From Gammaproteobacteria bacterium (GTDB lineage Bacteria; Pseudomonadota; Gammaproteobacteria; Steroidobacterales; Rariloculaceae): DNA of 64,000 bases. The notes under the pieces are model-generated. The model saw only the letters and a program-made list of their open reading frames with translations, did not search any database and had not been told where the DNA came from. Of the stretch, positions 45,730 to 64,000 are shown one piece after another (position 1 is the stretch's first letter; every line of letters starts with the position of its first letter). The DNA is taken from the NCBI GenBank assembly GCA_017577365.2, contig PKRJ02000006.1, forward strand, positions 2,116 to 66,115, written 5' to 3'. The translations under genes were made by a program, and so were the position numbers.

Positions 45730-45790
45730 CCGTCGCCGAGCCGCTCGCTCCGCCTTGCTAGAATCACCGCCTTTGGTTCCGGACCGTTCG

Positions 45791-47751: not shown

Positions 47752-47764
47752 CGTCGAACGGAAG

Positions 47765-48319: not shown

Positions 48320-48323
48320 GCGC

Positions 48324-49364
48324 ATGTGGACGTTCGCGTGGCCGTGGCTCTTGATCTTCCTGCCGATGCCGTGGCTCGTCCGGCGGGTGCTGCCGCCCGC
48401 GTCGGTCGAGCGCGGCGCGGCGCTCGTGGCGCCGCCCGGAAGCCCTCTCGCCGACCTCGCCTCGTCTCGCGCCGGCCGAACGGCTCGCGTGCCGCGCCTC
48501 GCGCTGCTCTGGCTCGTGTGGACGCTCGCGGTGTTTGCCGCGGCGCGGCCGCAATGGGTCGGCGATGCGGTCGCGATTCCGATCACCGGGCGCGACTTGC
48601 TGCTCGCGGTCGACCTCTCCGGCAGCATGGAGGAGCAGGACTTCCAGCTCGAGGGGCGATGGGTGAACCGGCTCGTCGCGACCAAGGCCGTCGCCGATGA
48701 CTTCATCGAGCGGCGCGTCGGCGACCGGATCGGCCTGATCCTGTTCGGCCGCGAGGCGTATCTGCAGGCGCCGCTCACCTTCGATCGCGAGACGGTGCGC
48801 ACGCTGCTCGACGAGGCCGTGATCGGGCTCGCCGGCAAGGAGACCGCCATCGGCGACGCGATCGGCCTTGCGATTCGCACGCTCGACGACGCCGGCATCG
48901 AGCAAGGTCGCCGCGTGCTGATCCTGCTGACCGACGGCGCGAACACGGCAGGCGCGGTCGATCCGCTCAAGGCGGCCGAGCTCGCGGCGCGCCGAGGCGT
49001 CGTGATCTACACGGTCGGCATCGGCGCCGACGCGCTGACGGTGCGCTCTTTGTTCGGCCTGCGTCAGATCAACCCGTCCGCCGATCTCGACGAGAAGACG
49101 CTGACGCAGATCGCGGAGCTCACCGGCGGACGTTATTTCAGGGCGCGCGATACCGAGGAATTCGCCGAGATCTACGCGATCCTCGACGAGCTCGAGCCGG
49201 CGGAAACGGAAGCTTCGGGGTATCGGCCCGTGAAGGAGCTGTTCTTCTGGCCGCTCGCGGCCGCCGTGCTGATCGTGCTCGCTGCCGCCGCGAGCGAGGC
49301 CGCGATCGCAGCCTTTCGCCGGCGCGCCGCGGCGACGACTTCGAGCGAGGCCGCGTATGGCTGA
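48324..49364 (+). CDS. VWA domain protein (BatA-like)
   Basis: N-terminal TM 'MWTFAWPWLLIFLPMPWL', MIDAS 'LLLAVDLSGSM', 'LLTDGANTAG', and a C-terminal TM. Confidence 0.85.
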   Translation: MWTFAWPWLLIFLPMPWLVRRVLPPASVERGAALVAPPGSPLADLASSRAGRTARVPRLALLWLVWTLAVFAAARPQWVGDAVAIPITGRDLLLAVDLSGSMEEQDFQLEGRWVNRLVATKAVADDFIERRVGDRIGLILFGREAYLQAPLTFDRETVRTLLDEAVIGLAGKETAIGDAIGLAIRTLDDAGIEQGRRVLILLTDGANTAGAVDPLKAAELAARRGVVIYTVGIGADALTVRSLFGLRQINPSADLDEKTLTQIAELTGGRYFRARDTEEFAEIYAILDELEPAETEASGYRPVKELFFWPLAAAVLIVLAAAASEAAIAAFRRRAAATTSSEAAYG

Positions 49365-51306: not shown

Positions 51307-53036
51307 ACGCAGGGTCAGGCAGGCACGGCACGCGCGGCCGAATCGGCCGCGGCGCGGCCTTGCTGCATGCGTTCGCCGTGCTCCTCGCGGCGCTCGCATG
51401 CTGCGGCGTGCGCATCGCGCACGCGCAGCAGGACGACGTCGAGATCCACGCGTCCGTCGACCGCGCGACGCCGCGGCTCAACGAATCGCTGACCTACGTG
51501 CTGACCGCGCGCGGCCGCGTGCGCGGCGAGCCCGACATCACGCCGCTGACCGAGATGTTCGAGGTCTTGCGCACTCAGGAGTCGACGCGCATTCAGATCG
51601 TGAACGGCCGCGCGGAGCAGATCGCGGAGTGGATCTATCTGCTGATGCCGCGTCGGCCCGGTAAGGCGCTGATCCCGCCGATCGAGGTCGGCGGCCGTTA
51701 TTCGAATGCGGTCGAGATCGAGGTGCTGCCGCCCGCGGACACCAACGCGGAAGTGCCGGGAGAAATCTTCCTCGAGGTCGAGGTCGCGCCGCAGGACCGC
51801 GTGTACGTTCAATCGCAGATCGTGTTCACGCTTCGGCTGTTCATCGGCACGATGACCGGCCGCGCGGGCATCACGCCGCCGGAGATCGTCGAAGGCGACG
51901 CGATCATCGAGCGCCTCGGAGACGACGTCGAGTACCGGGTCAATCGCGGCGGCCGCGATTTCACGGTACGCGAGCGGCTCTACGCGATCTTCCCGCAGCG
52001 CGCCGGCAAGCTGACGATCGGCCCGGCGACGTTCGAGGCGATGGTCATTCCGCCGCGCGGCTTCTCGCGCGTGCAGCGCTTCACGTCCGAGCCGATCGAG
52101 ATCGAGGTGCTGCCGGCCGTGCCGCCGCCGCCGTCGCATCCGAGCGCGGCGTGGCTTCCGGCGAAGCGGCTCGAGATCACGGAGCGCTGGGCCGGCGGCG
52201 CCGAGGATCCGCCTATGCTTACCGTCGGCGTGCCGACGACGCGGTCGCTCACGATCGTCGCCGAGGGCTTGCTCGAGACGCAGCTTCCGGAGCTTGCGCC
52301 GGCCCAGGCGGACGGCGTTCGCCTCTACGCCGACCGTCCCGAGCTGTCGCGCGCGTCGGGGCCGGGCGGGCTCGTCGCGACGCGCGTCGAGCGCTACGCC
52401 GTGCTGCCGCAATCGGCGCGCGAAACGACGCTGCCGCCGATCGAGCTTCCGTGGTTCGACGTCGAGCGCGGACGCTGGGAAATCGCTTCGGTGCCGGCGA
52501 GAACGCTCAAGATCGCGCCCGGAAGCGAGCCGGCCTCGCCGCCCGCGGCGACTCCGGCGCCGGTCACCGGGACGCCGTCCGCGGCGCCGTCGGGCTCGAA
52601 GGCGGGCCCCTGGCCCGCGCTCGCCGCGGTCTTCGCGGTCGGCTGGATGCTGACCGCGTTTTTCTGGTGGCGGGCGGCCCGGCGTGACGCGCGCGCGGTC
52701 CCCGGCTCGCCGGGGGCTCGGACGATCACGGACCGCTCCGCGGCTCGCATCCGCGACGCCTGCAAGCGAAACGATCCGGCCGCGGCGCGCGACGCGCTGC
52801 TCGCGTGGGCCGCGGAGCGTTTCCCCGAGTCGCCGCCGCGTTCCCTCGGCGCGCTCGCGGCGCGCGTTCCCGAGCCCATGGCGGCCGCGCTGAGCGAGCT
52901 CGACGCGGCGCTTTATGCCCCGCATCGGAGTGCCTGGAACGGCGAGGCGCTCGCGGCCGCGTTCGCCTCGCGCGCGACGCGCATCACAGGTTCGCCGCGC
53001 CGGCGCCGCGAGCCGCTGCTGCCGCTTTATCGGTGA
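51300..53036 (+). CDS. BatD-like (oxygen-tolerance family) protein
   Basis: After a signal peptide comes 'VDRATPRLNESLTYVLTA'. 'PIE[IV]..L' Ig-like segments repeat, a TM lies near residue ~480, and the ATG overlaps the upstream stop (ATGGTGA). Confidence 0.8.
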   Translation: MVNAGSGRHGTRGRIGRGAALLHAFAVLLAALACCGVRIAHAQQDDVEIHASVDRATPRLNESLTYVLTARGRVRGEPDITPLTEMFEVLRTQESTRIQIVNGRAEQIAEWIYLLMPRRPGKALIPPIEVGGRYSNAVEIEVLPPADTNAEVPGEIFLEVEVAPQDRVYVQSQIVFTLRLFIGTMTGRAGITPPEIVEGDAIIERLGDDVEYRVNRGGRDFTVRERLYAIFPQRAGKLTIGPATFEAMVIPPRGFSRVQRFTSEPIEIEVLPAVPPPPSHPSAAWLPAKRLEITERWAGGAEDPPMLTVGVPTTRSLTIVAEGLLETQLPELAPAQADGVRLYADRPELSRASGPGGLVATRVERYAVLPQSARETTLPPIELPWFDVERGRWEIASVPARTLKIAPGSEPASPPAATPAPVTGTPSAAPSGSKAGPWPALAAVFAVGWMLTAFFWWRAARRDARAVPGSPGARTITDRSAARIRDACKRNDPAAARDALLAWAAERFPESPPRSLGALAARVPEPMAAALSELDAALYAPHRSAWNGEALAAAFASRATRITGSPRRRREPLLPLYR

Positions 53037-53121
53037 CGAGCGGACTGTGACCTGATCGACCGTTACCGCCGGCCCTATCGGGCATGCTTGCGTCCTCGAG
53101 ATTAGTCGATCGACGGAATAG

Positions 53122-54336
53122 ATGGAGCGGCCGGCTCTCGATCGTGCAAGCCTTCAGTCTCCGTACGCGGATCAGCTGAACCAAGGCTTCGTACGATTGC
53201 GTTTCAACGGACTCCTCGAGAAGGAGTTTCGTGACTTCTACGTCACGCAGAACCTGCCTCGCGGCCGGCTCGCACTGCTGACGGCACTCGGCCCGCTCTG
53301 CGTGCTCGCGTTGATTCAATTTCTTGCAGACGAGCCGAATCATCCGCTGACGTTGTGGCGAGTCGCGCTCGTTCCGCTGATCGCGGCGGCGCTGATCACG
53401 GTGTACGTGCCGGCGGCGAAGCGCTACTACATGGGCATCGCCGGCACGACCGTGCTGCTCGGCGGCGGATTGATCACGTATTTCTCGCATGCCGAAGCGC
53501 TCGCCGGCGGCGCGAACCTCCTCGCCGCGCAAACCCTCGTGGTGCTGTTCGCGTGCGTGTTCCTCGGCCTGCTGTTCGATATCGCGACGGCAATCGGAGC
53601 GGCGCTCCTCGTGTGGCATTTCGCGGCAGGATCGTTGCTCGGCGTCGGATGGGAGGATCTTTCGTACTCCGGTGCGATTCTCGCGACCGCCGTTGCCGCC
53701 GCGCTGATCACGACGTACAAGCTCGAGCACGTGCTTCGCACGAATTTTCTCGAAGCGAGGCTGCTCAACTCGCTCGCGGAGCGCGACGGCCTGACCGGTC
53801 TCTACAATCGCCGGATGTTCGACGACTACGCGAAACGCGTTTGGCGGCAGTCGCGCCGCGAAGGCCAAGTGCTCGCGGTCGTGATGGTCGATATCGACGA
53901 CTTCAAGGTCTACAACGATCTCTACGGCCATCAGGCCGGGGACGATACGCTGAAGAAGGTCGCGGAGACGATCGCGCGCTGCGCGAAGCGGCCGTTCGAC
54001 TTCACGGCGCGCTACGGCGGCGAGGAGTTCGTGCTGCTCCTGTACGGCCCGCCGAAAGATTACGCGCGCTCGCTGCCGGAGCAGATTCGCCGTGATGTGA
54101 TGGCGCTCGAGATTCCCCACGAGGGCTCGCGCGCCGCGGACGTCGTGACCGTGAGCATCGGCGTCGCGGTCGCGGAGCCCGGCACCTCCCGAAGCCTCGC
54201 CGGAACGCTGCAGGTCGCCGACCAGGCGCTCTACCAGGCGAAGCAGGAAGGGCGGAACCGCGTGGTCGTCATGACGACCGACGACGCGGAAGTGGAGACG
54301 GGCAATTTCCGCGTGCGGTTCCGCGACAGCGCCTAA
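53122..54336 (+). CDS. Membrane-bound GGDEF diguanylate cyclase
   Basis: About 6 N-terminal TM helices. 'ERDGLTGLYNRRMFD', active-site 'GGEEF', and an I-site 'RPFD' 5 residues upstream. Confidence 0.85.
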   Translation: MERPALDRASLQSPYADQLNQGFVRLRFNGLLEKEFRDFYVTQNLPRGRLALLTALGPLCVLALIQFLADEPNHPLTLWRVALVPLIAAALITVYVPAAKRYYMGIAGTTVLLGGGLITYFSHAEALAGGANLLAAQTLVVLFACVFLGLLFDIATAIGAALLVWHFAAGSLLGVGWEDLSYSGAILATAVAAALITTYKLEHVLRTNFLEARLLNSLAERDGLTGLYNRRMFDDYAKRVWRQSRREGQVLAVVMVDIDDFKVYNDLYGHQAGDDTLKKVAETIARCAKRPFDFTARYGGEEFVLLLYGPPKDYARSLPEQIRRDVMALEIPHEGSRAADVVTVSIGVAVAEPGTSRSLAGTLQVADQALYQAKQEGRNRVVVMTTDDAEVETGNFRVRFRDSA

Positions 54337-54342
54337 CGCCGA

Positions 54343-54762
54343 TTACCACTTGCCCTGATTCGGCATCGATGCCCACGGCTCCTCGGGCGGTTTCGCCGGG
54401 CCTTTCTGCAGCAGCTCGATCGAGATGTTGTCCGGCGAACGGATGAACGCCATGCGCCCGTCGCGCGGCGGGCGATTGATCGTCACGCCCATCTCCATGA
54501 GCCGGCGGCACGTCTCGTAGATGTCGTCCACCTCGTACGCGATGTGCCCGAAATTGCGCCCTTCGGTGTATTGCTCCGGATCCCAGTTGTACGTCAGCTC
54601 GAGTTGCGCGTCCTCCTGCCCCTCCGGCGCGAGGAACACGAGCGTGTAGCGGCCGGCTTCGTTCTCGTGCCGTCGGATCTCCTTCAACCCGAGCTTGCGG
54701 CAGTAGAAATCGAGCGATTCCTCGAGGTTGCTGACGCGCACCATCGTGTGCAGGTAACGCAA
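54343..54762 (-). CDS. gloA: Lactoylglutathione lyase (glyoxalase I)
   Basis: '[26 protein letters not shown]', 'ELTYNW', '[11 protein letters not shown]' and '[16 protein letters not shown]'. Confidence 0.9.
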
Positions 54763-54816
54763 GGCGGCTCCTCCGCGGCGTCCCCGACGGGACGGCCAAT
54801 GTTGTGACGTGATTCA

Positions 54817-55812
54817 ATGCGACTATACATTCTACAGTCCGCCCGATTGATTCCGCATGAAGCCCGATCGTTGACTACGCCCCGCATCGTCTTCGTTCCC
54901 GGCATGAAGCCGAAGCCGCCGCCGCGGCCCCACAAGCGCGAGCTGCTGAGAACGCTCGTCGCCGGCCTCGCGTGGGTCCGTCCCGCGGCGGCGCGCTGGC
55001 TGCGCGAGCACGAGGATCGGTTCACGCTCGTCTCGTGGACGCATCGCTTCTACGGCCGCTATCGCGACATCTCGCTCGACCTGCCGGGTGTCGAACGGCT
55101 TCTGCATCAGCCCGAGGCGAGCGACGAGGATCGCGCCGAGATCGATGCGGCGGCGCGCGGCGCGCGCCGGCTCGCGCATCTGGTCGGCGACGCGCTGCCG
55201 TTCGTCGGACGCCTGATCGCCCGGCCCGAGCTCAGGCTGACGATGACCGAGGTGCACCGGTACTTCAGCGACGAGGACGGCGTCTCGAGCGAGATCCGTT
55301 CGCTGCTGAAGACCGTGATCCGCCAGGCCTGGCTCGCCGGCGAGCGCGTCTGCCTCATCGGTCATAGCCTGGGCTCCGTCATCGCATACGACGCGTTGTG
55401 GGAGCTGTCCCGCGAGGACGGCGACACGCGGCGTATCGAGCTCTTCGTCACGCTCGGCAGCCCGCTCGCGACGCGCTTCATCCGCCGCTCGCTGCGCGGC
55501 GCGGAACGGAAGGGCGCCGAGCGATACCCGTCGAATATCGTCCGGTGGGCGAATTTCGCGGCGAAGGGCGAGACGATCGCTCTGAAGCCGATGCGCGGCT
55601 TTTTCGCGCCGATGCAGGAGCTCGGGCTCGTCGAGTCGATCTCGGACGAAACCGAGCTCTACAACCACTACCGCGGCGACCGCGGCCTCAATGTGCACGA
55701 ATCGTACGGCTACCTGATCCACCCGCACGTCGCGGGCTGCATCGGTGACTGGATCGAAGCCGTATCGACGGAGCGCGCGCTCGATGCGGCTCCGGCCGCT
55801 TCGTCGAGCTAA
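54817..55812 (+). CDS. Alpha/beta-hydrolase-fold protein (putative esterase/lipase)
   Basis: Nucleophile elbow 'LIGHSLGSVIAYDAL', early 'IVFVPGMKPKP', and late 'TLGSPL'. The start is uncertain. Confidence 0.55.
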   Translation: MRLYILQSARLIPHEARSLTTPRIVFVPGMKPKPPPRPHKRELLRTLVAGLAWVRPAAARWLREHEDRFTLVSWTHRFYGRYRDISLDLPGVERLLHQPEASDEDRAEIDAAARGARRLAHLVGDALPFVGRLIARPELRLTMTEVHRYFSDEDGVSSEIRSLLKTVIRQAWLAGERVCLIGHSLGSVIAYDALWELSREDGDTRRIELFVTLGSPLATRFIRRSLRGAERKGAERYPSNIVRWANFAAKGETIALKPMRGFFAPMQELGLVESISDETELYNHYRGDRGLNVHESYGYLIHPHVAGCIGDWIEAVSTERALDAAPAASSS

Positions 55813-57248
55813 TCGAGCTGCGGTCGGATGCGGATATCGATGCGTCGATTGCGCTCGCGTCCCTGCGGCGTCTCGTTGTTCGCGATCGGCCGCGTCTCGC
55901 CGTAGCCGATCGCGCTGACGCGAAACGCCTCGACCCCGAGCTCGCTCGTCAGGTGACGGCTGACGGCTTCCGCGCGCTGCCGCGAAAGCACCATGTTCGA
56001 CTCGTCGCCGCCGTACGAGTCGGTGTGACCTTCGATGACGATCTGGGAGTTGGGGAAGACGTCGATCGCCTGCCGAACCTTCTCGAGCAGCGGCCGGTGC
56101 TTGGGATCGATGTCCGCGCGTCCGCTCGCGAACGTGAGGCCGACGAGGCGCACGACGATCTCGTTGCCTTCGCGCGAGACGCGTGCTTCGTCGCGCGTGA
56201 ACATTCTCTCGATCGTGTCGAACTGCTCGCGCACGCGCGTCTCGGCTTCGAGGCGCTGAATCAGCGCGGCCCGTTCCTGCGAAACGCCGCCGAGCCGCTC
56301 GTCGAGCTCGCGGATCTCGTCCTCGAGCTCCGCGATGCGCTGGCGGCTCGACGCGAGGTCGAGCGCGGCCTCGCGCTCGCGCTCGCGCAGATCCTCGATA
56401 TAGGCGACGAGATCCGCGGCGATCGCCTCGATGCCGCGTTCGAGATCCGCGGCCTGGTCCGCGGCCGCGGCGACCTGAATCAACGGCTCCTCGTAGGCGA
56501 GGATCACGTCCTCGAGCTGCCAGCCCTCGTCGCGCATCGTGCGGATCCGCTCAGCGAGATGAATGGCGTGACGCGCTTCGCGATTCGCCTGCTGCGCGAG
56601 GCTGCGCGGCACGTCCGTGTCGTAGCGGTTCTCGTTGAGCTCTCGCTCGGCCTGCGCGAGCAGCTCGCGCGCGCGCGCGAGGGTCTTCGGCGCGTAGCGG
56701 CCGACGCGTGCCTGCTCGGCCTGCGCGAGCAACGCGCGCGTTTGGCTCAAGTACTGCGCTTTGATCGCAGTGAGCTCGGCGTCGCGATAGAGTGCCTCGG
56801 CTTCCTCGGCGCGACCGCGCGCGCCGCGGAGGTCGCCCGCTTCGAGTCGGCGCATCGCGGCCGTGAACGTTTCCTCGGCGCGTCGCCAGAGCTCCGTGGC
56901 GAACGTCTCGGCGCTCGCGTTCATCGCGTCGCCGCGCGTCTTGATCAGCGATGCGAGAGAGATCTTCGCGATCTCCGCGGCTTCGGCGGCCTGCTCGAAC
57001 GCGCGCTCCGCGTCCGCGAGCCTGGCGCGGATGCGCTCCATGTTCCGGCCGCGCTCGAGGTCGGATTCGGCGGCCTCGTAAGCCTCCACACCTCTGCGAA
57101 ACGCGTCGGGCGCGAGGAGCGGCGCTTCCGCTTCCACCGCCGCGGCGCGAGCCGCGTCGGCCTCGGCGAACAGCGTCGTCCGCAAGTCCTGTTGCGCCGC
57201 CGCCGGGACGGCGAGAAGCGCCAAGAAGCACAGGAGGATCCGGGGCAT
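55809..57248 (-). CDS. OmpA-family protein with long N-terminal coiled coil (DUF4398-like)
   Basis: Signal peptide 'MPRILLCFLALLAVPAAA'. About 330 aa of Ala/Glu/Arg-rich helical sequence. OmpA_C domain 'IEGHTDSYGGDESNMVLSRQRAEAV...GYGETRPIA'. Confidence 0.8.
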   Translation of the reverse strand: MPRILLCFLALLAVPAAAQQDLRTTLFAEADAARAAAVEAEAPLLAPDAFRRGVEAYEAAESDLERGRNMERIRARLADAERAFEQAAEAAEIAKISLASLIKTRGDAMNASAETFATELWRRAEETFTAAMRRLEAGDLRGARGRAEEAEALYRDAELTAIKAQYLSQTRALLAQAEQARVGRYAPKTLARARELLAQAERELNENRYDTDVPRSLAQQANREARHAIHLAERIRTMRDEGWQLEDVILAYEEPLIQVAAAADQAADLERGIEAIAADLVAYIEDLREREREAALDLASSRQRIAELEDEIRELDERLGGVSQERAALIQRLEAETRVREQFDTIERMFTRDEARVSREGNEIVVRLVGLTFASGRADIDPKHRPLLEKVRQAIDVFPNSQIVIEGHTDSYGGDESNMVLSRQRAEAVSRHLTSELGVEAFRVSAIGYGETRPIANNETPQGRERNRRIDIRIRPQLD

Positions 57249-57394
57249 CGAGGAAACCCGCGTCGAGAGAAGGCTTCTAGGTAATCGTGCGGGGGAAACG
57301 CTGTCAAGCGGACGGCCCGGGCCGAAAATTCTCGACGTCGATAATGTGCGCACGTTCACAGCAAGAGGCCCTTGCGGCCGCTAAATTGCGCGCC

Positions 57395-57595
57395 ATGGGC
57401 ATCAAGTACTACACGCACTTCATCCTGACGGGTTCGGCTGTGGACGGACACGATCAGGAGTTCAGCGGTGTCGTGGAGGTCAATCAGCCGACCGAGGATC
57501 GCTACGGGGTGAAGGATATCGAGGCGCTACTCGCGCGCAACTTCGACCTGAGCTCGAGCGCGGTTCGTCTGATCGACTGGGCCCGATTGCAGTAG
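57395..57595 (+). CDS. Small hypothetical protein (66 aa)
   Basis: GC3 codon bias is good, and a strong terminator follows immediately. I recognise no domain. Confidence 0.5.
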   Translation: MGIKYYTHFILTGSAVDGHDQEFSGVVEVNQPTEDRYGVKDIEALLARNFDLSSSAVRLIDWARLQ

Positions 57596-57686: not shown

Positions 57687-58181
57687 TCAGTAGCGGATGC
57701 TGACCACGGCGTACCACTTCTCTCCGTGCGGCGTGTGCACGGTGAGCTCGTCGTCGACGGCCTTACCCCGCACCGCGCGTCCGAGCGGCGAATCCATGCT
57801 GACGTAACGCGGGTCGTCGCCGATCTCGTCGGGACCCACGAGCCGATACTCGCGTTTCTGTCCGTGCTCGTCCTCGAGCTCGAACCATGCGCCGAAATAG
57901 ATCCTGCCGGTATCCGCCGGCGGCGAGTCGACGATGGTCATGCCGTCGAGACGCTTGCGCAGAAAGCGGATCCGCCGATCGATCTCGGCGAGCTGCTTCT
58001 TGCCGTAGATGTACTCGGCGTTCTCCGAGCGGTCTCCCTGGGCCGCCGCTTCCGCGACGGCCTTCGTGACCGCCGGGCGCTTGCGCCGCCAGAGCTCGTC
58101 GAGCTCCGCCTTCAGACGCTCCGCGCCCTCCTTCGTGATGAACTTCGACCCCGCGGGGCGAGGGGGGCGATAGCGGCTCAT
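57687..58181 (-). CDS. greB: Transcription elongation factor GreB
   Basis: 'FITKEGAERLKAELDELW..KRP.VTKAV..AAAQGDRSENAEYIYGKK', a C-terminal globular domain, and a basic N-terminal patch. ATG 58181 is the start. Confidence 0.9.
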   Translation of the reverse strand: MSRYRPPRPAGSKFITKEGAERLKAELDELWRRKRPAVTKAVAEAAAQGDRSENAEYIYGKKQLAEIDRRIRFLRKRLDGMTIVDSPPADTGRIYFGAWFELEDEHGQKREYRLVGPDEIGDDPRYVSMDSPLGRAVRGKAVDDELTVHTPHGEKWYAVVSIRY

Positions 58182-58215: not shown

Positions 58216-59226
58216 GTGAGCGAAAAGTCTAGCAGGATCGAGGCCGCCCTCCGCGCGATTCCCGTCGTCGTCACCGGGGAGAAGTACCGGACGCCGCAAG
58301 GTTTCACGGCGATCAAGAACGGCGTGAAGCCGCGCGACGAGCGCCGCGAGCTCAAATCGCCGCCGAAGCCGCCGTGGCTCAAGGCGAAGCTACCGTCGGG
58401 CGAGCGCTACGACGCCGTGAAGGCCACCGTTCGCGCTCATCGCCTCGCGACCGTCTGCGAGGAGTCGATGTGCCCGAATATCGGCGAGTGCTGGTCGAAC
58501 GGCACGGCGACGATCATGGTCATGGGATCGGTCTGCACGCGCGCGTGCCAGTTCTGCGCCGTCGATACCGGCAATCCGCGCGGCTGGCTCGATCCGGAGG
58601 AGCCCGAGAACACCGCTCGTACCGTCGAGCTGATGGGGCTCAAGTACGTCGTGCTGACGTCCGTCGACCGCGACGATCTGCCCGACGGCGGCGCGAGTCA
58701 TTTCGCCGCGTGCGTGCGTGCGATCAAGGCGCGATGCCCGGCGACGAAGGTCGAGGCGCTGACGCCCGATTTCTGCGGGCGCCTCGCCGACGTCGAGACG
58801 GTCGTCGATTCGGGGCTCGAGGTCTTCGCGCAGAACGTCGAGACCGTCGAGCGTCTCACGCACGTCGTGCGCGATCCGCGTGCCGGTTACGGCCAGACGC
58901 TGCGCGTCCTCGAGCACGCGAAGCGCCATCGGCCCGACGTGCTGACGAAGACGAGCCTGATGCTCGGCCTCGGCGAGCGCGACGACGAGATCCTGCGCAC
59001 GCTCGACGATCTCGCCGCGATCGGCGTCGACATCGTCACGTTCGGGCAGTACCTCCGGCCGACGCCGAATCACCTTCCGGTCGATCGGTACGTGACGCCC
59101 GAGGAGTTCGCACGCTATCGGGAATGGGGCCTCGAGCGCGGCTTCGTCGAGGTCGTGTCCGGTCCGCTCGTTCGCTCGAGCTACCGGGCGGACCGCGTCT
59201 TCGAGCACAACAACGTCGGACTGTAG
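58216..59226 (+). CDS. lipA: Lipoyl synthase
   Basis: '[15 protein letters not shown]' (auxiliary cluster), '[10 protein letters not shown]' (radical-SAM CxxxCxxC), 'TSVDRDDL' and 'SYRA'. Confidence 0.95.
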
Positions 59227-60200
59227 TGGGCGAGCTCTTCGGCGAATACGCGCTCTTCGTCGCGCAGCTCATCACGATCCTCGCCTTGTTGCTGCTCGCG
59301 GGCTCCGCGCTCGTCGCGCTCGGCCGGCGCAGCGAGCCGACGGACGCGATCGTCGTCCGACACCTGAACCGCGAGCTCGAGAAGCAGGCCGACGTGCTCC
59401 GGCGCGCCGTGCACGGCAAGGCCGGGTTCAAGAAGCTCGTGAAGGAACGTCGCGCGCGAGACCGCAAGAAGGCGCGCGACATCGACGCGAAGCCGCGCGT
59501 CTTCGTCATCGATTTCAAGGGCGATCTGCGCGCGAGCGCGGCCGCGTCGCTGCGGCACGAGGTCTCGGCGGTGCTCGCCGTCGCGACCGAGAAGGACAAG
59601 GTGCTCGTGCGGCTCGAGAACTCGGGCGGCACCGTGCATGACCACGGCTTCGCGGCGTCGCAGCTCGAGCGGATCAAGCGGCGCGGCATTCCGCTGATCG
59701 TCGCCGTCGACAAGGTCGCCGCGAGCGGCGGGTATCTCATGGCATGCGTCGCGGACCGGATCATCGCCGCGCCGTTCGCGGTCGTCGGCTCGATCGGCGT
59801 GCTGGTGCAGCTGCCGAACTTCAATCGGCTGCTCGAGGGCAAGGGCATCGACTTCGAGCAGGTTTCCGCTGGCCGTTACAAGCGCACGTTGACGATGTTC
59901 GGCAAGAACACCGACGAGGCGCGCGAGAAAATGAAGGAGGAGCTCGAAGAGGTTCACGAGCTCTTCAAGCGCCAGGTCGCGGAGCACAGGCCCCAGGTCG
60001 ATATCGAGCAAGTGTCGACCGGCGAGCATTGGTACGGCGCGAACGCGCTCGAGCGGAAGCTCGTCGACGAGATCGCGTCGAGCGACGACTGGCTGCTCGA
60101 GGCGGCGAAGGAGCACGAGATCTATCTCGTGACGTACAAGCGGCGGCGCCATCTGCTCGAGCGGGTATTGGGCAGCGCCGAGATGCTGCTCTCGCGCTGA
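59226..60200 (+). CDS. sohB: Peptidase S49 family protease SohB
   Basis: An N-terminal TM, then 'VFVIDFKGDL.ASA', 'VAASGGYLMACVADRI.AAPFA..GSIGV' and 'AGRYKRTLT.FG'. The GTG start shares one base with the lipA TAG. Confidence 0.85.
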   Translation: MGELFGEYALFVAQLITILALLLLAGSALVALGRRSEPTDAIVVRHLNRELEKQADVLRRAVHGKAGFKKLVKERRARDRKKARDIDAKPRVFVIDFKGDLRASAAASLRHEVSAVLAVATEKDKVLVRLENSGGTVHDHGFAASQLERIKRRGIPLIVAVDKVAASGGYLMACVADRIIAAPFAVVGSIGVLVQLPNFNRLLEGKGIDFEQVSAGRYKRTLTMFGKNTDEAREKMKEELEEVHELFKRQVAEHRPQVDIEQVSTGEHWYGANALERKLVDEIASSDDWLLEAAKEHEIYLVTYKRRRHLLERVLGSAEMLLSR

Positions 60201-60283: not shown

Positions 60284-61411
60284 ATGGCGGCGCAAAGAAA
60301 AGTTCTCCTGTCGATAGCAATCACGTCGTTCGCGTCGCTTGCCGCCGGTTGCGTTTTCGTCGTTCCGGAAGACCAGCTTGCGGGACAGTTCGCCGCCGCG
60401 GAGACTCTCGGTCCGCGTCACGACGCAGAGCGTCTGCCGCCGCTCGAGACGCGCCGCTTCGAGAACGTTGCCGAATCCACCGAGATCGTCGGCGACGTGC
60501 AGGTCATCTTCGCTCGTTACGAGAATACGTTCGCGAAGATCGCGCGCGCGTACGACATCGGTTACAACGCGCTGCGCCGCGCGAATCCGGGGGTCGACGA
60601 CTGGCTGCCCGGCGAAGGCACGCCGATCTACCTGCCGACGAGCTCGATTCTGCCGTCCGCGCCGCGCGAAGGGATTCTGATCAATCTGCCGGCGATGCGT
60701 CTTTACCATTTCGAGCCTGCGCGCGATAGCGACGAAGGCGAGCGCGAGGTGACGATCACGATGCATCCAATCGGCATCGGACGCGAGGGCTGGTCGACGC
60801 CGACGGGCGAGGCGACGGTCACGGAGAAGCTCGTCGACCCGACGTGGTATCCGTCGGAGGCCGTGCGTCGGGATCATGCCGAGCGCGGCGAGCCGCTGCC
60901 CGCGGTCGTGCCGCCCGGCCCCGACAACCCGCTCGGCCGCCACGCGATGCTGCTGTCGATACCGGGCTATCTGATCCACGGCACGAACAAGCCGTCCGGC
61001 GTCGGGATGCGGGTCAGCGCCGGCTGCATCCGGATGTATCCCGAGGACATCGAGGCGCTGTTCGGGCGCGTGCCGCGCGGGACGAAGGTGCGTATCGTCA
61101 ATGAGCCGGTGCTCGCCGGCTGGCGCGACGGAGAGCTCTATCTGGAGGTTCACCCGCCGCTCGACGAGGACGAGCGCGACCTCATGGAGGAGGCGTCGCG
61201 GGTCATCGCCGCGGCGCTCGAGCGTGCCGGCCAGGCCGGCGTCGAGCTCGATGCGGCGGCGATCCAACGTGTCGTCGACGAGCGGCGCGGAATCCCGTTC
61301 CCGATCGGCGTCGCGTCGCGCTCGCCCGCCGAATACCTCGCGGCCGCGCGCGTCGTCGTCAATACCGTCGACGAGCCTCGACCCGAGACCGCGGCGGCGC
61401 TCGATCAATGA
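60284..61411 (+). CDS. L,D-transpeptidase (YkuD domain) with LysM domain, lipoprotein
   Basis: Lipobox 'LAAGC', LysM-like 'FAKIARAYDIGYNALRRANPGV', and YkuD catalytic 'LIHGTNKPSGVGMRVSAGCIRM'. Confidence 0.9.
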   Translation: MAAQRKVLLSIAITSFASLAAGCVFVVPEDQLAGQFAAAETLGPRHDAERLPPLETRRFENVAESTEIVGDVQVIFARYENTFAKIARAYDIGYNALRRANPGVDDWLPGEGTPIYLPTSSILPSAPREGILINLPAMRLYHFEPARDSDEGEREVTITMHPIGIGREGWSTPTGEATVTEKLVDPTWYPSEAVRRDHAERGEPLPAVVPPGPDNPLGRHAMLLSIPGYLIHGTNKPSGVGMRVSAGCIRMYPEDIEALFGRVPRGTKVRIVNEPVLAGWRDGELYLEVHPPLDEDERDLMEEASRVIAAALERAGQAGVELDAAAIQRVVDERRGIPFPIGVASRSPAEYLAAARVVVNTVDEPRPETAAALDQ

Positions 61412-62871
61412 CCGTCGTCGCCTTCATCGGCAGAACGGAGCGCGGCCCCGTCGATCGGGCCGTGCCCGTTACGAGCTTCGACGAGTACTGCCGGATATTC
61501 GGGGGACACACGCCTCTCGGTTTCGTTTCGTACGCGGTTCAGCATTTCTTCCTGCACGGCGGCGAGAACGCGGTCGTCGTGCGGCTCACGAACGGCGCGA
61601 CGCCGGGCTCGATCGACGTCCCGGCCGGCGACGGTCTGTTGCGGCTCGTCGCACGGCGGCCGGGCAGCCGCGAGCACCTGCGCGTCTCCGTCGATTACCA
61701 GGGCGTCGAGCATTCTTCCGACCGCTTCAACCTCGTCGTGCAGCGGGTCGCCGGGCCGGGGTCTCAGCTCGTCGAGGATCAGGAGCTCTATCCCGCGCTG
61801 TCGCTCGACCCGGCGGATCCGCGCTTCGTCGTCGACGCGCTGCGGGAATCGGAGCTCGTGCGCCTCGTCGGTCCGCTTCCGAGCTGCCGGCCGGACGCGA
61901 CGCCGCCCAAGTTTCCGGGAGAGCCGTTCCGATACGTCGACATGTCGACCGCCGGCACGGACGGCGACGAGCTGACCGATTACGACATCGTCGGCTCGAA
62001 AGACGAAGGCACCGGGCTTTTCGCGCTCGATCGCGTCGCGAGGATCGACATCCTGTGCGTGCCGGCGCCGCCGCAGCGCGATTTCGGCACGACGGCGCTG
62101 ATCGCCGCCGAGCGTTATTGCCGACGCAGAAGAGCGTTGTTGGTCTGGGATCCGCCGTCGGCCTGGCCGACGAGCGATTCGGCGGTGATCGGCATGCGCT
62201 CGATCGGCTTCGCGAGCACGAACGCGATGACGTATTTCCCGCGGCTTCGCCCGCGCGGGCGATTCGGCGACTTTCCGCCGGGCATGCCGGCCTGCGGCGC
62301 GCTCGCGGGGCTGTTCGCGAGCGGCGATAAGGAGCGCGGTCATCCGGGCGGGCCCGTCGGCGCGTTGAAGGCGAGCTTCTCGACGCTCTGCGATCTCGGC
62401 GAGCGCGAAGCGACGAGGCTTCTCCGTTTCGGCGTGAATCCGCTGATGCGCATCGCCGGCGGCGCGGTCGTGCTCGACGGGAACGTTTGCCTCGCGCCCG
62501 AGGACGGCCGCGACGCTTTCGCGCGCCGTCTCGATTTCAGCCGCGCGACGCTGCACGTGCTCGATACCCTCGAGCGCGTCGCGCAACGGTCTTCCGATTC
62601 GCTGGGCGAGCCCGGCGCCGCCGACCGTTACGCGCAAGAGGTTCGCGCGAAGCTCGCGGAGCTCCACGCGAGCGGCGTCCTCGCGGGTCGGCATCAGACC
62701 GAGGCCTACTTCGTGCGCATCGTCGCGAGCGGTCCGGAAGCGATCGTGATTCGCGTCGGCGTCGCGATCGCGGGACCCGGCTGCTTCAGGACCTACGATC
62801 TCGAGCTCGGCCGCACGGGGCTCGCGGTGCGCGAAGTGCCGCCGCTCGACGGCGAGCAGCTCGTCGGCTGA
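61408..62871 (+). CDS. Phage-tail/eCIS contractile sheath homologue, orphan and lacking the usual N-terminal segment
   Basis: 'VVAFIGRTERGPVDRAVPVTSFDEYCRIFGG', 'FFLHGGENAVVVRL', 'FNLVV', 'LSLDPADPRFV', 'GTGLFALDRV.RIDILCVPA' and 'YFPRL' follow the sheath family order as I remember it. The ATG overlaps the ldt stop (ATGA). Confidence 0.7.
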   Translation: MTVVAFIGRTERGPVDRAVPVTSFDEYCRIFGGHTPLGFVSYAVQHFFLHGGENAVVVRLTNGATPGSIDVPAGDGLLRLVARRPGSREHLRVSVDYQGVEHSSDRFNLVVQRVAGPGSQLVEDQELYPALSLDPADPRFVVDALRESELVRLVGPLPSCRPDATPPKFPGEPFRYVDMSTAGTDGDELTDYDIVGSKDEGTGLFALDRVARIDILCVPAPPQRDFGTTALIAAERYCRRRRALLVWDPPSAWPTSDSAVIGMRSIGFASTNAMTYFPRLRPRGRFGDFPPGMPACGALAGLFASGDKERGHPGGPVGALKASFSTLCDLGEREATRLLRFGVNPLMRIAGGAVVLDGNVCLAPEDGRDAFARRLDFSRATLHVLDTLERVAQRSSDSLGEPGAADRYAQEVRAKLAELHASGVLAGRHQTEAYFVRIVASGPEAIVIRVGVAIAGPGCFRTYDLELGRTGLAVREVPPLDGEQLVG

Positions 62872-62887: not shown

Positions 62888-64000
62888 TCAAGGCGCGCCG
62901 TATCCGCCGCCGCCGGGCGTCTCGATGACGAAGCGGTCGCCGGCCTCGACGGCGATCGACGCGACCGGCCCGAGCTCGACGATCTCTCCGTTGTGCCGCA
63001 CGACGTAGTTGCGGCCCGGCGCACCGTCGCCGCCGCCGGCCAGGCCGAAGGGCACGGTGCGCCTGCGATTCGACAGGATCGCCGCGTGCATCGGCGCCAA
63101 GAACTCGATCTCGCGAACGACGCCGTCGCCGCCGCGATGCCGTCCCGAGCCGCCCGAGCCTCGTCGGATCTCGAAGCGGCGCACGCGCACCGGATAACGC
63201 GACTCGAGCACCTCGGGGTCCGTGAGGCGCGAGTTCGTCATGTGCGTGTGCACGGCGCTCGCGCCGTCGAACGCCGGGCCCGCGCCGGCGCCGCCGCAGA
63301 GCGTCTCGTAGTACTGGAGCGCCGCGTTGCCGAACGTGAAGTTGTTCATCGTGCCTTGAGACGCAGCGGCCGCACCGAGCGCGGCGAGGAGCGCGTCCGC
63401 GATGCATTGCGACGTCTCGACGTTGCCGGCGACGACCGCCGCCGGATAGCGCGGATCGACGAGGCTGTCCCGCGGCAACAGGATCGTCAACGGCTTCAAG
63501 CACCCGGCGTTGAGCGGGATATGCTCGCGCACGAGAGCTCGGAACACGTACAGAACGACCGCGCGCGCGATCGCGGGCGGCGCGTTCAGGTTCGACGCGC
63601 TCGTCGGCGACGTGCCCGCGAAATCGATCACGGCCTCGCGGCGCTCGCGGTCGATACGCACCGCGACGCTGATCCGTTCGCCGCCGTCGAGCTCGACCGT
63701 GCGCTCGCCGTCGGAGAGCCTTGCGATCGCGTCGCGAACGCACGCCTCGGCATTCTGCTTCACGTGGCCCATGTACGCGTGGACGACGCCGCGTCCGTAG
63801 CGGGCGACGAGCTCGCCGAGCAGCTCGACGCCGCGTGCGTTCGCCGCGAGCTGCGCCTTGAGATCGGCGATGTTCTGCTCGGGATTGCGCGCGGGATACG
63901 GTCCGCTCGCAAGCACCGAGCGCACGTCGTCCTCGAGGAAGCGGCCGCCCGAGACGATGCGCATGCCTTCGATCAGCACGCCCTCGTCGTCGATCGTGCG
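62888..64000 (-). CDS. Hydantoinase B/oxoprolinase family protein, C-terminal part (5' end beyond the window)
   Basis: '[18 protein letters not shown]', 'NLNAP.AI..A.VLYVFR', 'NAGCLKP', '[11 protein letters not shown]', 'GTMNNFTFG' and '[19 protein letters not shown]'. The frame stays open to nt 64000. Confidence 0.9.

What the first reader, a model, noticed from the sequence alone, without database searches (positions are those of the whole stretch)
61408..62871. Orphan contractile-sheath homologue missing its N-terminal segment, with its start codon overlapping the stop of an L,D-transpeptidase
The 487-aa ORF reads like a phage-tail/extracellular-contractile-injection-system sheath. The matching blocks, in family order, are:
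- 'VVAFIGRTERGPVDRAVPVTSFDEYCRIFGG...YAVQHFFLHGGENAVVVRL'
- 'RFNLVV...LSLDPADPRFV'
- 'DGDELTDYDIVGSKDEGTGLFALDRVARIDILCVPA'
- 'YFPRL'
- a C-terminal 'EAYFVR' block

Four things are odd.
1. No other contractile-machine gene is nearby: no tube, baseplate, spike, tape measure or ATPase. Upstream are greB, lipA, sohB and ldt. A convergent hydantoinase B gene ends 17 nt after the sheath stop.
2. The protein starts directly at the 'AAFVG'-type strand. As I recall, the 20-30 aa N-terminal segment (PGVYxEE-type) contributes to inter-subunit strand exchange in solved sheaths. It is absent here. The in-frame upstream sequence looks non-coding and is occupied by ldt.
3. ATG 61408 overlaps the ldt TGA (61409-61411, ATGA). 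This implies co-transcription and translational coupling with a LysM-YkuD peptidoglycan enzyme.
4. Positions I remember as near-invariant in the sheath C-domain (KAPAN-like, WGARTL-like) appear substituted ('GHPGGPVG', 'VLDGNVCL'). The ORF nevertheless stays open with normal GC3 bias.

The gene is therefore either an exapted single-gene sheath derivative linked to the envelope, or an unusually intact relic.
Basis: partly seen in the sequence, partly recalled or inferred. Interest (0 to 1): 0.7.

Follow-up and report, generated by a model that had tools for sequence, protein, structure and literature searches.

The report
Domesticated solo tail-sheath gene, N-arm deleted
This gene is a real, selectively maintained copy of the "sheath" protein of phage-tail-like injection machines that a whole lineage of sediment and soil Gammaproteobacteria has kept as a single chromosomal gene without any other machine part nearby, and in this organism a 130-base deletion has removed one of its two assembly arms.

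Summary
ORF 61408-62871 (487 aa) is intact, its ATG overlaps the ldt TGA (ATGA), and its AF2 model (pLDDT 92) matches solved contractile sheaths (Foldseek E 6e-24).

The interpretation needs re-centring. The orphan status is not peculiar to this gene.
- It belongs to a large, undescribed family with over 1,000 database proteins.
- Members were found in 77 species-level MAGs of Woeseiaceae, Steroidobacteraceae and allied uncultured Gammaproteobacteria.
- In nearly all of these the gene sits downstream of lipA-sohB-ldt(-rhomboid).
- No tube or baseplate gene lies within 8-10 kb.
- The gene co-diverges with its housekeeping neighbours (r about 0.9) and is under purifying selection (dN/dS 0.07-0.3).

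Nearly all family members keep the N-terminal strand-exchange arm. In Woeseiaceae it aligns residue for residue with PGVYVEE-type arms. The window gene and three orthologues lost it through one clean deletion of about 130 nt. That deletion fused the sheath to the ldt stop codon and created the ATGA start. The truncated genes evolve no faster than ldt or their full-length sisters.

The hallmark KAPAN and WGARTL motifs are replaced family-wide, and the family falls below every Pfam sheath threshold.

The gene is an exapted solo sheath, not a relic. Its function and polymerisation remain inferred.

The parts
61408..62871 (+). Solo sheath-like gene, 487 aa, lacking the N-arm. It has the three-domain contractile-sheath fold.
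   Evidence: ORF. PHROG_23 1e-13. PDB sheaths at about 1e-9. AF2 pLDDT 91.9, pTM 0.88. Foldseek 9ezm_A E 6e-24. dN/dS 0.24-0.32 against its three truncated orthologues.
61408..61411 (+). ATGA start/stop overlap (sheath ATG 61408-61410, ldt TGA 61409-61411). The deletion junction lies immediately 3' of it (61411|61412).
   Evidence: Sequence. The DNA alignment with the full-length sisters L007, L008 and L004 shows a clean gap of about 130 nt from the ldt TGA to codon ACC-GTC. The same GATC[A/G]ATGA motif occurs in L006, L086 and L087.
61411..61449 (+). First conserved strand and loop, 'TVVAFIGRTERGP' (residues 2-14). In canonical sheaths this follows the N-terminal exchange arm.
   Evidence: It aligns to residues 27-40 of 8bky and 9ezm. 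It is invariant or nearly invariant in the family.
61960..62067 (+). Most conserved family block, 'DGDELTDYDIVGS..GTGLFALDR...CVP' (residues 185-220). It falls in the Phage_sheath_1-like region.
   Evidence: Invariant columns in A1, A2 and A4. These peptide patterns retrieved the 77 genome loci.
62338..62361 (+). 'GHPGGPVG', the position of the canonical 'GVHKAPAN' motif, replaced here.
   Evidence: phmmer alignment to 8bky and 9ezm. Canonical relatives keep GVWKAPAG.
62470..62493 (+). 'VLDGNVCL', the position of the canonical 'xVWGARTL' motif, replaced here. The family has its own conserved G-N motif.
   Evidence: G358 is invariant in A1, A2 and A4.
62836..62868 (+). C-terminal tail 'VPPLDGEQLVG' (residues 477-487). 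It is conserved among near relatives but flexible in the monomer model, and is a candidate C-terminal exchange arm.
   Evidence: pLDDT <50 for residues 481-487. VPPLD is conserved in A1. C-tail conservation profile.
60284..61411 (+). ldt: L,D-transpeptidase (YkuD plus a weak Ldt_C match), 375 aa. Its stop codon overlaps the sheath start.
   Evidence: Pfam YkuD 3.9e-20. Gene call in the identical contigs L083-L085.
59226..60200 (+). sohB-like S49 peptidase, part of the conserved syntenic block.
   Evidence: Pfam Peptidase_S49_N and Peptidase_S49. Synteny.
58216..59226 (+). lipA (lipoyl synthase), part of the syntenic block.
   Evidence: Pfam LIAS_N and Radical_SAM on the identical contig. 68-90% identity across loci.
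57687..58181 (-). greB, divergent from lipA, part of the syntenic block.
   Evidence: Pfam GreA_GreB_N and GreA_GreB. Synteny.
62888..63979 (-). 3' part (hydantoinase B domain) of a convergent hydantoinase A/B (oxoprolinase-type) gene. Its stop codon lies 16 nt after the sheath stop, and the ORF continues upstream, probably beyond the window end.
   Evidence: ORF. Pfam Hydant_A_N, Hydantoinase_A and Hydantoinase_B on the identical contig. Conserved in most loci.

Best explanation
**What it is (shown).** The gene is a functional, N-terminally truncated orthologue of a previously undescribed family of 'solo' sheath proteins.
- An ancestor of Woeseiales, Steroidobacterales and allied Gammaproteobacteria captured one sheath gene. 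It came from a contractile injection system of the Afp / CIS-Sc / haloarchaeal type.
- The gene sits at one chromosomal site, downstream of lipA-sohB-ldt(-rhomboid), without tube, baseplate or spike genes.
- It has been inherited vertically and kept under purifying selection ever since.
- The three-domain sheath fold is kept, but the hallmark C-domain motifs (KAPAN, WGARTL) were replaced.
- In the window's subclade, one deletion of about 130 nt removed the ldt-sheath spacer and the N-arm. It created a new ATG from the last base of the penultimate ldt codon plus the TG of the stop codon.
- The truncated gene stayed under the same constraint.

**How it probably works (inferred).**
- In most family members both terminal arms are conserved yet disordered in the monomer model. 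This is the signature of sheath strand-exchange arms.
- The family therefore most likely self-assembles without a tube into polysheath-like rings, filaments or tubules in the cytoplasm. T4 gp18 and phiKZ sheath proteins do this when expressed alone.
- The polymer would serve a housekeeping structural or scaffolding role, possibly tied to the co-oriented envelope-maintenance genes.
- The truncated version is probably translated by termination-reinitiation after ldt.
- Its function therefore does not need the N-arm-mediated mesh. It would rely on C-arm or lateral contacts only, or on a property of the folded body.
For: **Fold and homology:**

**Family size and annotation**
- 643 and 1,332 proteins matched at E<=1e-3, each from searches capped at 8,000 candidates.
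- Sources name them only 'hypothetical' or 'phage tail sheath'.

**Fixed locus**
- 77 species-level genome loci were found, and nearly all carry ompA/greB/lipA/sohB/ldt upstream and mostly hydantoinase downstream.
- The same order is seen with Pfam-annotated neighbours on Mb-scale contigs.

**Vertical inheritance**
- Pairwise distances of the sheath gene correlate with those of lipA (r 0.90), sohB (0.89), ldt (0.94) and hydB (0.91).

**Selection**
- dN/dS is 0.07-0.15 for close pairs.
- It is 0.24-0.32 inside the truncated clade, 0.20-0.33 for ldt in the same genomes, and 0.21-0.25 in the full-length sister clade.
- The sheath/ldt dN ratio is constant at about 1.25.

**No machine partners**
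- No tube, baseplate or spike Pfam family occurs in the flanks.
- The only tail-annotated PHROG family seen among 41 window ORFs is the sheath itself.
- tblastn of a canonical tube protein against the window plus 97 loci (1.39 Mb) hits only the viral control loci.
- In the nearest viral-contig relatives, a PF06841 tube gene starts 12 nt after the sheath gene.

**N-arm ancestral, then deleted**
- The Woeseiaceae member aligns from residue 1 to residue 1 of 9ezm and 8bky.
- In-frame arms are present in nearly all loci.
- The deletion is clean in the DNA alignment.
- The four truncated genes are monophyletic and nested inside the full-length clade, and their branches are no longer.

**Arms conserved but disordered**
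- N-arm conservation (mean frequency of the commonest residue per column) is 0.89 against 0.80 for the core in Woeseiaceae.
- pLDDT is 33-60 for residues 1-27 and below 50 for residues 505-525.

**Literature**
- The role of the arms in the interwoven mesh, and tube-less polysheaths of T4 and phiKZ, are described in PMC6088184.
Against: - No direct evidence of polymerisation, expression or localisation exists.
- The whole genomes could not be scanned, so tube or baseplate genes elsewhere are not excluded.
- The most conserved canonical C-domain motifs are replaced family-wide. This could mean that canonical sheath-sheath or sheath-tube contacts are lost and the protein no longer polymerises.
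- The N-arm degenerates along the soil lineage (conservation 0.58 against 0.75 for the core). It is dispensable in the window's clade, which argues that arm exchange is not essential for the selected function, at least there.
- dS values are near saturation for distant pairs, so absolute dN/dS values are rough.
- The envelope link is gene order only. It is broken in Woeseiaceae by a divergent PLP-enzyme gene.
Confidence: 0.55

Rival explanations
1. Dispersed contractile injection system. The sheath gene is the only component at this locus. It works with tube, baseplate, spike and ATPase genes encoded elsewhere in the same genomes, as a lineage-wide core CIS or T6SS-like machine.
For: - The fold is intact, and both exchange arms are conserved in most members.
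- Whole genomes were not searchable with the tools at hand.
Against: - In characterised CIS and tailocin loci the sheath and tube genes are adjacent. The nearest viral-contig relatives show this, with the tube gene 12 nt downstream.
- No tube-like sequence occurs in 1.39 Mb of flanks.
- The hallmark C-domain motifs KAPAN and WGARTL, kept by all canonical relatives, are replaced.
- The N-arm that ties sheath discs together is dispensable in the window's clade.
- CIS loci are typically patchy and mobile (established knowledge), whereas this gene is fixed and co-diverges with lipA.
Confidence: 0.12
2. Non-polymeric moonlighting protein. The sheath fold has been retooled as a soluble monomer or small oligomer, for example an adaptor or regulator of the neighbouring envelope proteases or transpeptidase. 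The terminal arms would bind a different partner.
For: - The canonical C-domain motifs are replaced family-wide.
- The N-arm is progressively degenerate and then deleted without any change in constraint.
- Many family-specific invariant charged residues occur (R9, R12, D96, Q112, R113, D124-E126, D185, D193, D248, R379).
- The co-orientation with sohB, M48, ldt and rhomboid is conserved.
Against: - No catalytic or ligand-binding family matched in Pfam or NCBIfam.
- The neighbours act in the periplasm or membrane, whereas this protein has no signal peptide or TM segment (sequence; secondary structure).
- In Woeseiaceae the N-arm is the best conserved part and still resembles the canonical exchange arm.
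Confidence: 0.23
3. Anti-phage or anti-tailocin decoy. A domesticated sheath subunit co-assembles with the sheaths of infecting myoviruses and poisons tail assembly. A copy without the N-arm would act as a chain terminator.
For: - Structural-protein decoys are a known defence logic (general knowledge).
- A subunit with an acceptor site but no N-arm would in principle cap a growing sheath (inference from PMC6088184).
Against: - No PADLOC family matched.
- The gene is not in a defence island. It sits in a housekeeping block, is single-copy, co-diverges with lipA and is under purifying rather than diversifying selection.
- Identity to any phage sheath in GenBank phages is at most 25%. That is too remote for co-assembly with contemporary phages.
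Confidence: 0.04
4. Slowly decaying prophage or CIS relic that happens still to be open.
For: - The N-terminal arm is lost.
- The canonical motifs are lost.
- The Pfam scores are sub-threshold.
Against: - 72 of the loci fetched for the family keep an uninterrupted ORF of at least 440 codons. The interrupted ones lie in contigs whose other genes are also fragmented.
- dN/dS is 0.07-0.32.
- The truncated form is conserved in four lineages at 69-79% identity, each with the ATGA junction intact.
- GC3 is 0.86, like the neighbouring genes.
- The AF2 model is confident.
Confidence: 0.03

Closest known systems
Sheath of the haloarchaeal T6SS-like contractile injection system (Halogeometricum borinquense; PDB 9ezm; PMC11566945)
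   Same: It is the best structural and sequence match: Foldseek E 6e-24, TM 0.69, 20% identity, and phmmer 4e-10. It shares the three-domain single-chain architecture of about 500-570 aa. The N-arm of the Woeseiaceae family members aligns to it from residue 1.
   Different: 9ezm is part of a full CIS gene cluster and forms a contractile sheath around a tube. The window gene has no tube or baseplate neighbour, lacks the N-arm, has KAPAN and WGARTL replaced, and carries a C-terminal extension of about 20 aa.
Streptomyces coelicolor cytoplasmic CIS (CIS-Sc) sheath (PDB 8bky, 8bl4, 9gtp)
   Same: phmmer scores are 8.5e-10 for the window protein and 3e-22 for the Woeseiaceae member. It is also a cytoplasmic, non-phage chromosomal sheath. 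The closest plasmid-borne relative is a Streptomyces sheath at 33% identity.
   Different: CIS-Sc is encoded in a complete CIS cluster and fires. Here there is a single gene in a housekeeping block.
Canonical Afp/PVC-type eCIS sheath plus tube pairs in metagenomic or viral contigs (L090-L097)
   Same: They are 31-34% identical over nearly the whole length and about the same size (526 aa). They score 300-370 bits with the family profile. They are the probable ancestral type.
   Different: They keep PGVYIEE, GVWKAPAG and WGARTL, and have a PF06841 tube gene 12 nt downstream.
T4 gp18 and phiKZ polysheaths (sheath protein assembling without tube or baseplate)
   Same: They are the functional analogy proposed here: a sheath subunit polymerising on its own (PMC6088184).
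   Different: Polysheaths are an off-pathway product of a phage structural gene. They are not a selected cellular function, and assembly of the present family has not been shown.
T6SS TssB/TssC (VipA/VipB)
   Same: It has the same sheath superfamily core and is a chromosomal bacterial system.
   Different: The T6SS sheath is split into two genes and is linked to Hcp, the baseplate and ClpV. The present protein is one chain, and no TssC entry appears among the top 50 Foldseek hits.

Membership tests
Contractile sheath superfamily (phage tail, tailocin, eCIS or T6SS sheath; Pfam PF04984/PF17482) | Sheath fold (domain 1 with nested domain 2, plus or minus domain 3) | tested here: met
   AF2 pLDDT 91.9. 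Foldseek prob 1.0 to 9ezm, P1, T4, phiCD508, Lin1278, CIS-Sc, PVC and AFP sheaths.
Contractile sheath superfamily (phage tail, tailocin, eCIS or T6SS sheath; Pfam PF04984/PF17482) | Significant sequence-profile match to the curated sheath models | tested here: inconclusive
   PHROG_23 1e-13 and PDB sheaths at 1e-9. Pfam Phage_sheath_1 scores only 20 bits against a gathering score of 31.4. Other family members are also below the gathering score or unmatched. NCBIfam finds nothing.
Contractile sheath superfamily (phage tail, tailocin, eCIS or T6SS sheath; Pfam PF04984/PF17482) | N-terminal strand-exchange arm (PGVYVEE-type, about 25 aa) | tested here: not met
   Absent in the window protein and three orthologues because of a deletion of about 130 nt. 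Present in the rest of the family.
Contractile sheath superfamily (phage tail, tailocin, eCIS or T6SS sheath; Pfam PF04984/PF17482) | C-terminal exchange arm | tested here: inconclusive
   A conserved C-tail with low pLDDT is present. Its insertion into a neighbouring subunit cannot be tested with a monomer model.
Contractile sheath superfamily (phage tail, tailocin, eCIS or T6SS sheath; Pfam PF04984/PF17482) | Hallmark C-domain motifs (KAPAN/KAPAG, WGARTL) | tested here: not met
   Replaced by GHPGGPVG and LDGNVCL here, and by other residues across the family. Canonical relatives keep them.
Functional contractile injection system (eCIS/Afp/PVC, CIS-Sc, tailocin, prophage tail) | Adjacent tube gene and baseplate, spike or tape-measure genes | tested here: not met
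   None occurs within 8-10 kb in the window's own contigs or in the related loci examined. None was seen among the 41 window ORFs scanned. The positive control has a tube gene 12 nt downstream.
Functional contractile injection system (eCIS/Afp/PVC, CIS-Sc, tailocin, prophage tail) | Machine components present elsewhere in the genome | not testable with these tools
Functional contractile injection system (eCIS/Afp/PVC, CIS-Sc, tailocin, prophage tail) | Polymerisation around a tube, and contraction | not testable with these tools
   Needs biochemistry, EM or multimer modelling.
T6SS sheath TssB/TssC | Two-gene split sheath (TssB plus TssC) with a ClpV-binding N-terminal domain, linked to Hcp | tested here: not met
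   It is a single 487-aa chain, and the upstream gene is ldt. No TssC or VipB entry appears among the top 50 Foldseek hits.
Prophage or CIS pseudogene relic | Disrupted ORF, patchy distribution, dN/dS near 1 | tested here: not met
   Intact in 72 of the fetched loci. Fixed synteny. dN/dS 0.07-0.32.
Known anti-phage defence systems (PADLOC) | Match to a defence-system protein model | tested here: not met
   No PADLOC family matched four family members.

The most novel reading that the evidence does not exclude
A contractile-machine sheath protein has been domesticated as a core, vertically inherited, tube-less self-assembling element. It would be a new kind of bacterial cytoskeletal or scaffolding polymer, in Woeseiales, Steroidobacterales and allied Gammaproteobacteria. 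Woeseiaceae are, from general knowledge not checked here, among the most abundant bacteria of marine sediments. The polymer would be co-expressed with envelope-maintenance enzymes. The window's lineage would show a natural 'one-armed' variant, so the function needs only part of the canonical strand-exchange mesh.
Probability: 0.35. Interest if true: 0.85.

Novelty: new variant of a known kind. Interest (0 to 1): 0.7.

Why it matters
Sheath proteins are known only as parts of complete contractile machines: phage tails, tailocins, eCIS and T6SS. Here a sheath gene has been kept alone at one housekeeping locus across deeply divergent branches of Gammaproteobacteria. It is under purifying selection, and its hallmark motifs have been rewritten. 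That would be a clear case of a viral or CIS structural protein exapted for a cellular role.

The family is invisible to Pfam and NCBIfam thresholds and is annotated 'hypothetical' or 'phage tail sheath'. Prophage and CIS predictors can therefore mis-score these genomes.

The natural series of N-arm states runs from canonical to degenerate to deleted. It offers a ready-made experiment on what the sheath exchange arms are needed for. It gives CIS structural biologists a testable question: does a sheath without a tube, and without one arm, still polymerise, and into what?

Tried and rejected
- **Alternative upstream start or frameshifted N-arm.** The upstream frame is open but has no start codon. 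It is off-frame ldt sequence, conserved as such in L006. Rejected.
- **NCBIfam** found no family.
- **PADLOC** found none.
- **Rfam and tRNA scans** of the window found nothing.
- **Promoter and terminator scan** of 57-64 kb found no promoter-like site. Terminator-like hits were at chance level, so it was uninformative.
- **Literature.** Four full-text searches gave no paper describing such a family. The terms were orphan/standalone/solitary sheath, sheath-like protein, Woeseiaceae plus tail sheath, and CIS plus tube-less.
- **Phage and plasmid collections.** The best phage hit is 24.7% identical over 57% of the length. The best plasmid hit is a Streptomyces CIS sheath at 32.8%. There is no sign of recent mobile origin.
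- **Apparent pseudogenes** in a few loci (L019, L043, L050, L059). The neighbouring genes in the same contigs are fragmented too, so these are most likely assembly indel errors and not decay.
- **Profile search of 1.84 billion representatives**. Scores fall continuously from 727 to 300 bits with no gap. The family boundary was therefore drawn from motifs and synteny and not from score.

Full report
**1. The observation.**
- The ORF list gives 61408..62871 (+), 487 aa.
- In the sequence the ATG is 61408-61410 and the TGA of the upstream gene is 61409-61411 (GATCAATGACC).
- The frame upstream of the ATG stays open for at least 69 codons. It contains no ATG, GTG or TTG and translates to Arg-rich off-frame text.
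- The upstream genes are greB (-), lipA, an S49 SohB-type peptidase and a YkuD L,D-transpeptidase with a weak Ldt_C domain.
- No LysM domain was detected at E<=0.001.
- A convergent hydantoinase A/B gene has its stop codon 16 nt after the sheath stop.

**2. It is a sheath.**
- Pfam gives only a sub-threshold Phage_sheath_1 match: 20 bits against a cut-off of 31.4. NCBIfam gives nothing.
- PHROG_23 'tail sheath' matches residues 2-427 at 1.2e-13.
- phmmer against PDB sequences finds the Halogeometricum CIS sheath 9ezm (4e-10) and the Streptomyces CIS sheaths 8bky and 8bl4 (9e-10). Query residue 2 aligns to chain residue 27.
- An AlphaFold2 model built on 118 homologues is confident, with pLDDT 91.9 and pTM 0.88.
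- Foldseek against the PDB returns almost only sheath chains. These are 9ezm_A (E 6e-24, TM 0.69), then P1, T4, phiCD508, Lin1278, CIS-Sc, PVC and AFP.

**3. The gene is one member of a large solo-sheath family at a fixed chromosomal site.**
- The first protein search found 643 relatives, and the top 120 all cover 95-100% of the query at 47-70% identity. A Woeseiaceae member as query found 1,332. A third, deeper branch gave 524.
- Sources call these proteins 'hypothetical' or 'phage tail sheath'.
- A scan of one genome per species returned 77 loci. All are MAGs of Gammaproteobacteria: Woeseiaceae, Steroidobacteraceae, Ca. Rariloculaceae and unnamed groups. Three bins are labelled Rhodospirillales.
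- tblastn of the window's neighbours against these loci shows the same order almost everywhere: ompA-like <, greB <, lipA >, sohB >, ldt >, [0-1.4 kb], sheath-like >, and mostly < hydantoinase.
- Pfam-annotated gene tables on 0.46-5.45 Mb contigs show the same block. A rhomboid gene often lies between ldt and the sheath gene. In the third branch an M48 peptidase lies between sohB and ldt. There is no tube, baseplate, spike or ATPase family.
- In Woeseiaceae a divergent PLP-enzyme gene separates ldt from the sheath gene, and an ECF sigma factor gene follows it.

**4. Inheritance and selection.**
- Pairwise protein distances of the sheath gene correlate with those of lipA (r 0.90), sohB (0.89), ldt (0.94) and the hydantoinase (0.91). 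The sheath gene evolves about 1.2-1.6 times faster than these neighbours. This is co-divergence, not repeated acquisition.
- Nei-Gojobori dN/dS for close pairs is 0.07-0.15.
- 72 of the fetched loci keep an uninterrupted ORF of at least 440 codons. The few broken ones lie in contigs whose neighbouring genes are also fragmented.
- The closest GenBank phage sheath is 24.7% identical over 57% of the length. The closest plasmid gene is a Streptomyces CIS sheath at 32.8%.

**5. The missing N-terminal arm is a recent, clean deletion.**
- Almost every locus has 23-30 extra in-frame codons before the conserved TVAAF strand.
- In Woeseiaceae these read MSEAVDHGITVTEIAAMDQ.IDVS. They align from residue 1 to residue 1 of 9ezm (MSEYQSPGVYVEEVQSGSKSVEGV) and of 8bky. 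The arm is therefore ancestral and homologous to the canonical exchange arm.
- In that clade the arm is better conserved than the rest of the protein. The mean frequency of the commonest residue per column is 0.89 against 0.80. In the soil clade it is degenerate (MA.EP.DF...EVIPIV; 0.58 against 0.75).
- Only the window gene, L006 (79% identity), P0003 and P0004 (69-71%) lack the arm.
- Aligning the junction DNA with the full-length sisters L007, L008 and L004 shows one gap of about 130 nt. It runs from the ldt TGA to the ACC-GTC codons. The new ATG is made of the last base of the penultimate ldt codon plus the TG of the stop.
- All four truncated genes carry GATC[A/G]ATGA and a 4-nt overlap with ldt.
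- They form one clade nested inside the full-length soil clade, and their branches are no longer than those of the sister clade.
- dN/dS within the truncated clade is 0.24-0.32. For ldt in the same genomes it is 0.20-0.33, and in the full-length sister clade it is 0.21-0.25. The sheath/ldt dN ratio is about 1.25 both within the truncated clade and between it and L004.
- Loss of the arm therefore did not relax constraint.

**6. Family-wide departures from canonical sheaths.**
- A profile of the family, searched against 1.84 billion representatives, gives 2,929 hits below 1e-30. Scores fall continuously from 727 to 300 bits.
- Sampled sequences at 370 bits or less are canonical. They have PGVYVEE, GVWKAPAG, VIWGARTL and AYFVKCD..TTTQADID.
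- In the solo family these motifs are replaced. Here they read GHPGGPVG and VLDGNVCL. In Woeseiaceae they read YGAWQDPNQQ and RLTGSVTMG.
- Family-specific invariant residues appear instead, many of them charged.
- Representative members of all three branches fail every Pfam sheath threshold.

**7. Positive control for 'no tube'.**
- The nearest relatives in IMG/VR contigs are 31-34% identical.
- They are canonical sheaths followed 12 nt later by a 174-aa gene that matches PF06841 (T4 gp19-type tube) at 2.8e-46.
- tblastn with that tube protein against the window and all 97 loci (1.39 Mb) hits only those viral loci.
- A PHROG scan of 41 window ORFs showed no tail-annotated family other than the sheath. 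25 of the 31 matched families were displayed.

**8. How it most likely works.**
- Shown: the protein has the sheath fold, is a solo gene, sits at a fixed locus, is vertically inherited, is under purifying selection, and lost the arm by deletion.
- Inferred: in solved sheaths the N-terminus adds a strand to the domain-I sheet of a subunit in the next disc. A neighbour's C-terminus extends that sheet, giving an interwoven mesh. T4 and phiKZ sheath proteins alone form polysheaths (PMC6088184).
- In a full-length family member the N-arm (residues 1-27) and the C-tail (residues 505-525) are conserved but modelled as low-confidence coil. That is what one expects of segments that fold only on a partner subunit.
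- I therefore favour tube-independent self-assembly into rings, filaments or tubules with a cellular structural role.
- The window's one-armed variant would be made by translational reinitiation after ldt. It would keep whatever part of the function does not need the N-arm.
- The repeated co-orientation with SohB, M48, Ldt and rhomboid hints at an envelope connection, but this is gene order only.

**9. Rivals.**
- A dispersed CIS with partners elsewhere cannot be excluded, because whole genomes could not be scanned. Against it stand the universal sheath-tube adjacency in relatives, the rewritten motifs and the dispensable arm.
- A non-polymeric moonlighting role is the strongest rival. It is favoured by the motif loss and the arm degeneration.
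- A defence decoy is unlikely: there is no PADLOC hit, the context is housekeeping, and selection is purifying.
- A decaying relic is refuted.

**10. Novelty.**
- Four full-text searches found no description of an orphan or stand-alone sheath, nor of a tail sheath in Woeseiaceae.
- The thing is a new variant of a known kind: a sheath-fold protein outside any contractile machine. If it proves to polymerise, it would be a new class of bacterial polymer derived from a CIS.

**11. Limits.**
- There are no expression data, multimer models or whole-genome scans.
- dS is near saturation for distant pairs.
- The NJ tree and the NG86 estimates are simple methods.
- The taxonomy rests on MAG labels.

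Noticed in passing
window 57395-57595 (+): A small 66-aa ORF lies between the OmpA-like gene and greB. It has no Pfam match. A gene of 65-89 aa is called at the same position in every related contig examined. It is a conserved unknown micro-gene within the same syntenic block.
   Followed up: partly
L001 9269-9958; L002 9247-9927; L088 9239-9937 (no counterpart in window 61411/61412): Most soil-clade and third-branch relatives carry a rhomboid protease gene between ldt and the sheath-like gene. The window's clade and its sisters (L004, L007, L008) have lost it. The window clade then also lost the remaining spacer together with the N-arm.
   Followed up: partly
L061 9583-10881; L060 9547-10831: In Woeseiaceae the sheath-like gene is followed about 85-100 nt later, on the same strand, by an ECF sigma-70 gene (Pfam Sigma70_r2/r4). 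After it come two small genes with no Pfam match, the second with a signal-peptide-like N-terminus. This may be an envelope-stress module. In L052 the same module lies further downstream.
   Followed up: partly
L088 7342-8118: The third deep branch of the family has an M48 peptidase gene inserted between sohB and ldt. The run sohB-M48-ldt-rhomboid-sheath is tightly packed and co-oriented, with overlaps of about 13 and 4 nt.
   Followed up: no
L090 839-2077 (-); L092 87-1388 (-): Some IMG/VR contigs carry a canonical sheath plus tube pair. They also encode a P-loop protein beginning MAIHAYFGLPGAGKSYGVV. From memory this looks Zot-like (filamentous-phage assembly ATPase). An inovirus next to a CIS locus may be why these contigs are filed as viral.
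   Followed up: no
L019, L043, L050, L059 (MFD-series MAG contigs): Several genes in these loci, not only the sheath gene, give fragmented tblastn hits or premature stops. This is most likely indel error in the assemblies. It should not be read as pseudogenisation of the sheath gene.
   Followed up: partly
L039, L040, L042: Three MAGs labelled Rhodospirillaceae or Rhodospirillales carry the sheath-like gene with parts of the gammaproteobacterial syntenic block. L039 and L040 have greB-lipA-sohB-sheath-hydantoinase at 60-77% identity, and L042 has only ldt upstream. The bins are probably mislabelled or contaminated.
   Followed up: no
window about 45755-57359: The block upstream of greB is also syntenic in relatives across the family. 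It comprises MoxR-like and BatD-type aerotolerance genes, GGDEF, glyoxalase, an alpha/beta-hydrolase-like gene and an OmpA-domain coiled-coil protein. The whole region of about 20 kb is an unusually stable piece of chromosome.
   Followed up: no
window 61408-62871 (protein P0001): The identical 487-aa protein is indexed in 48 blocks of the public assembly collection, including JGI, ENA and NCBI samples. The organism, or very close strains, therefore recurs across many metagenomes.
   Followed up: no
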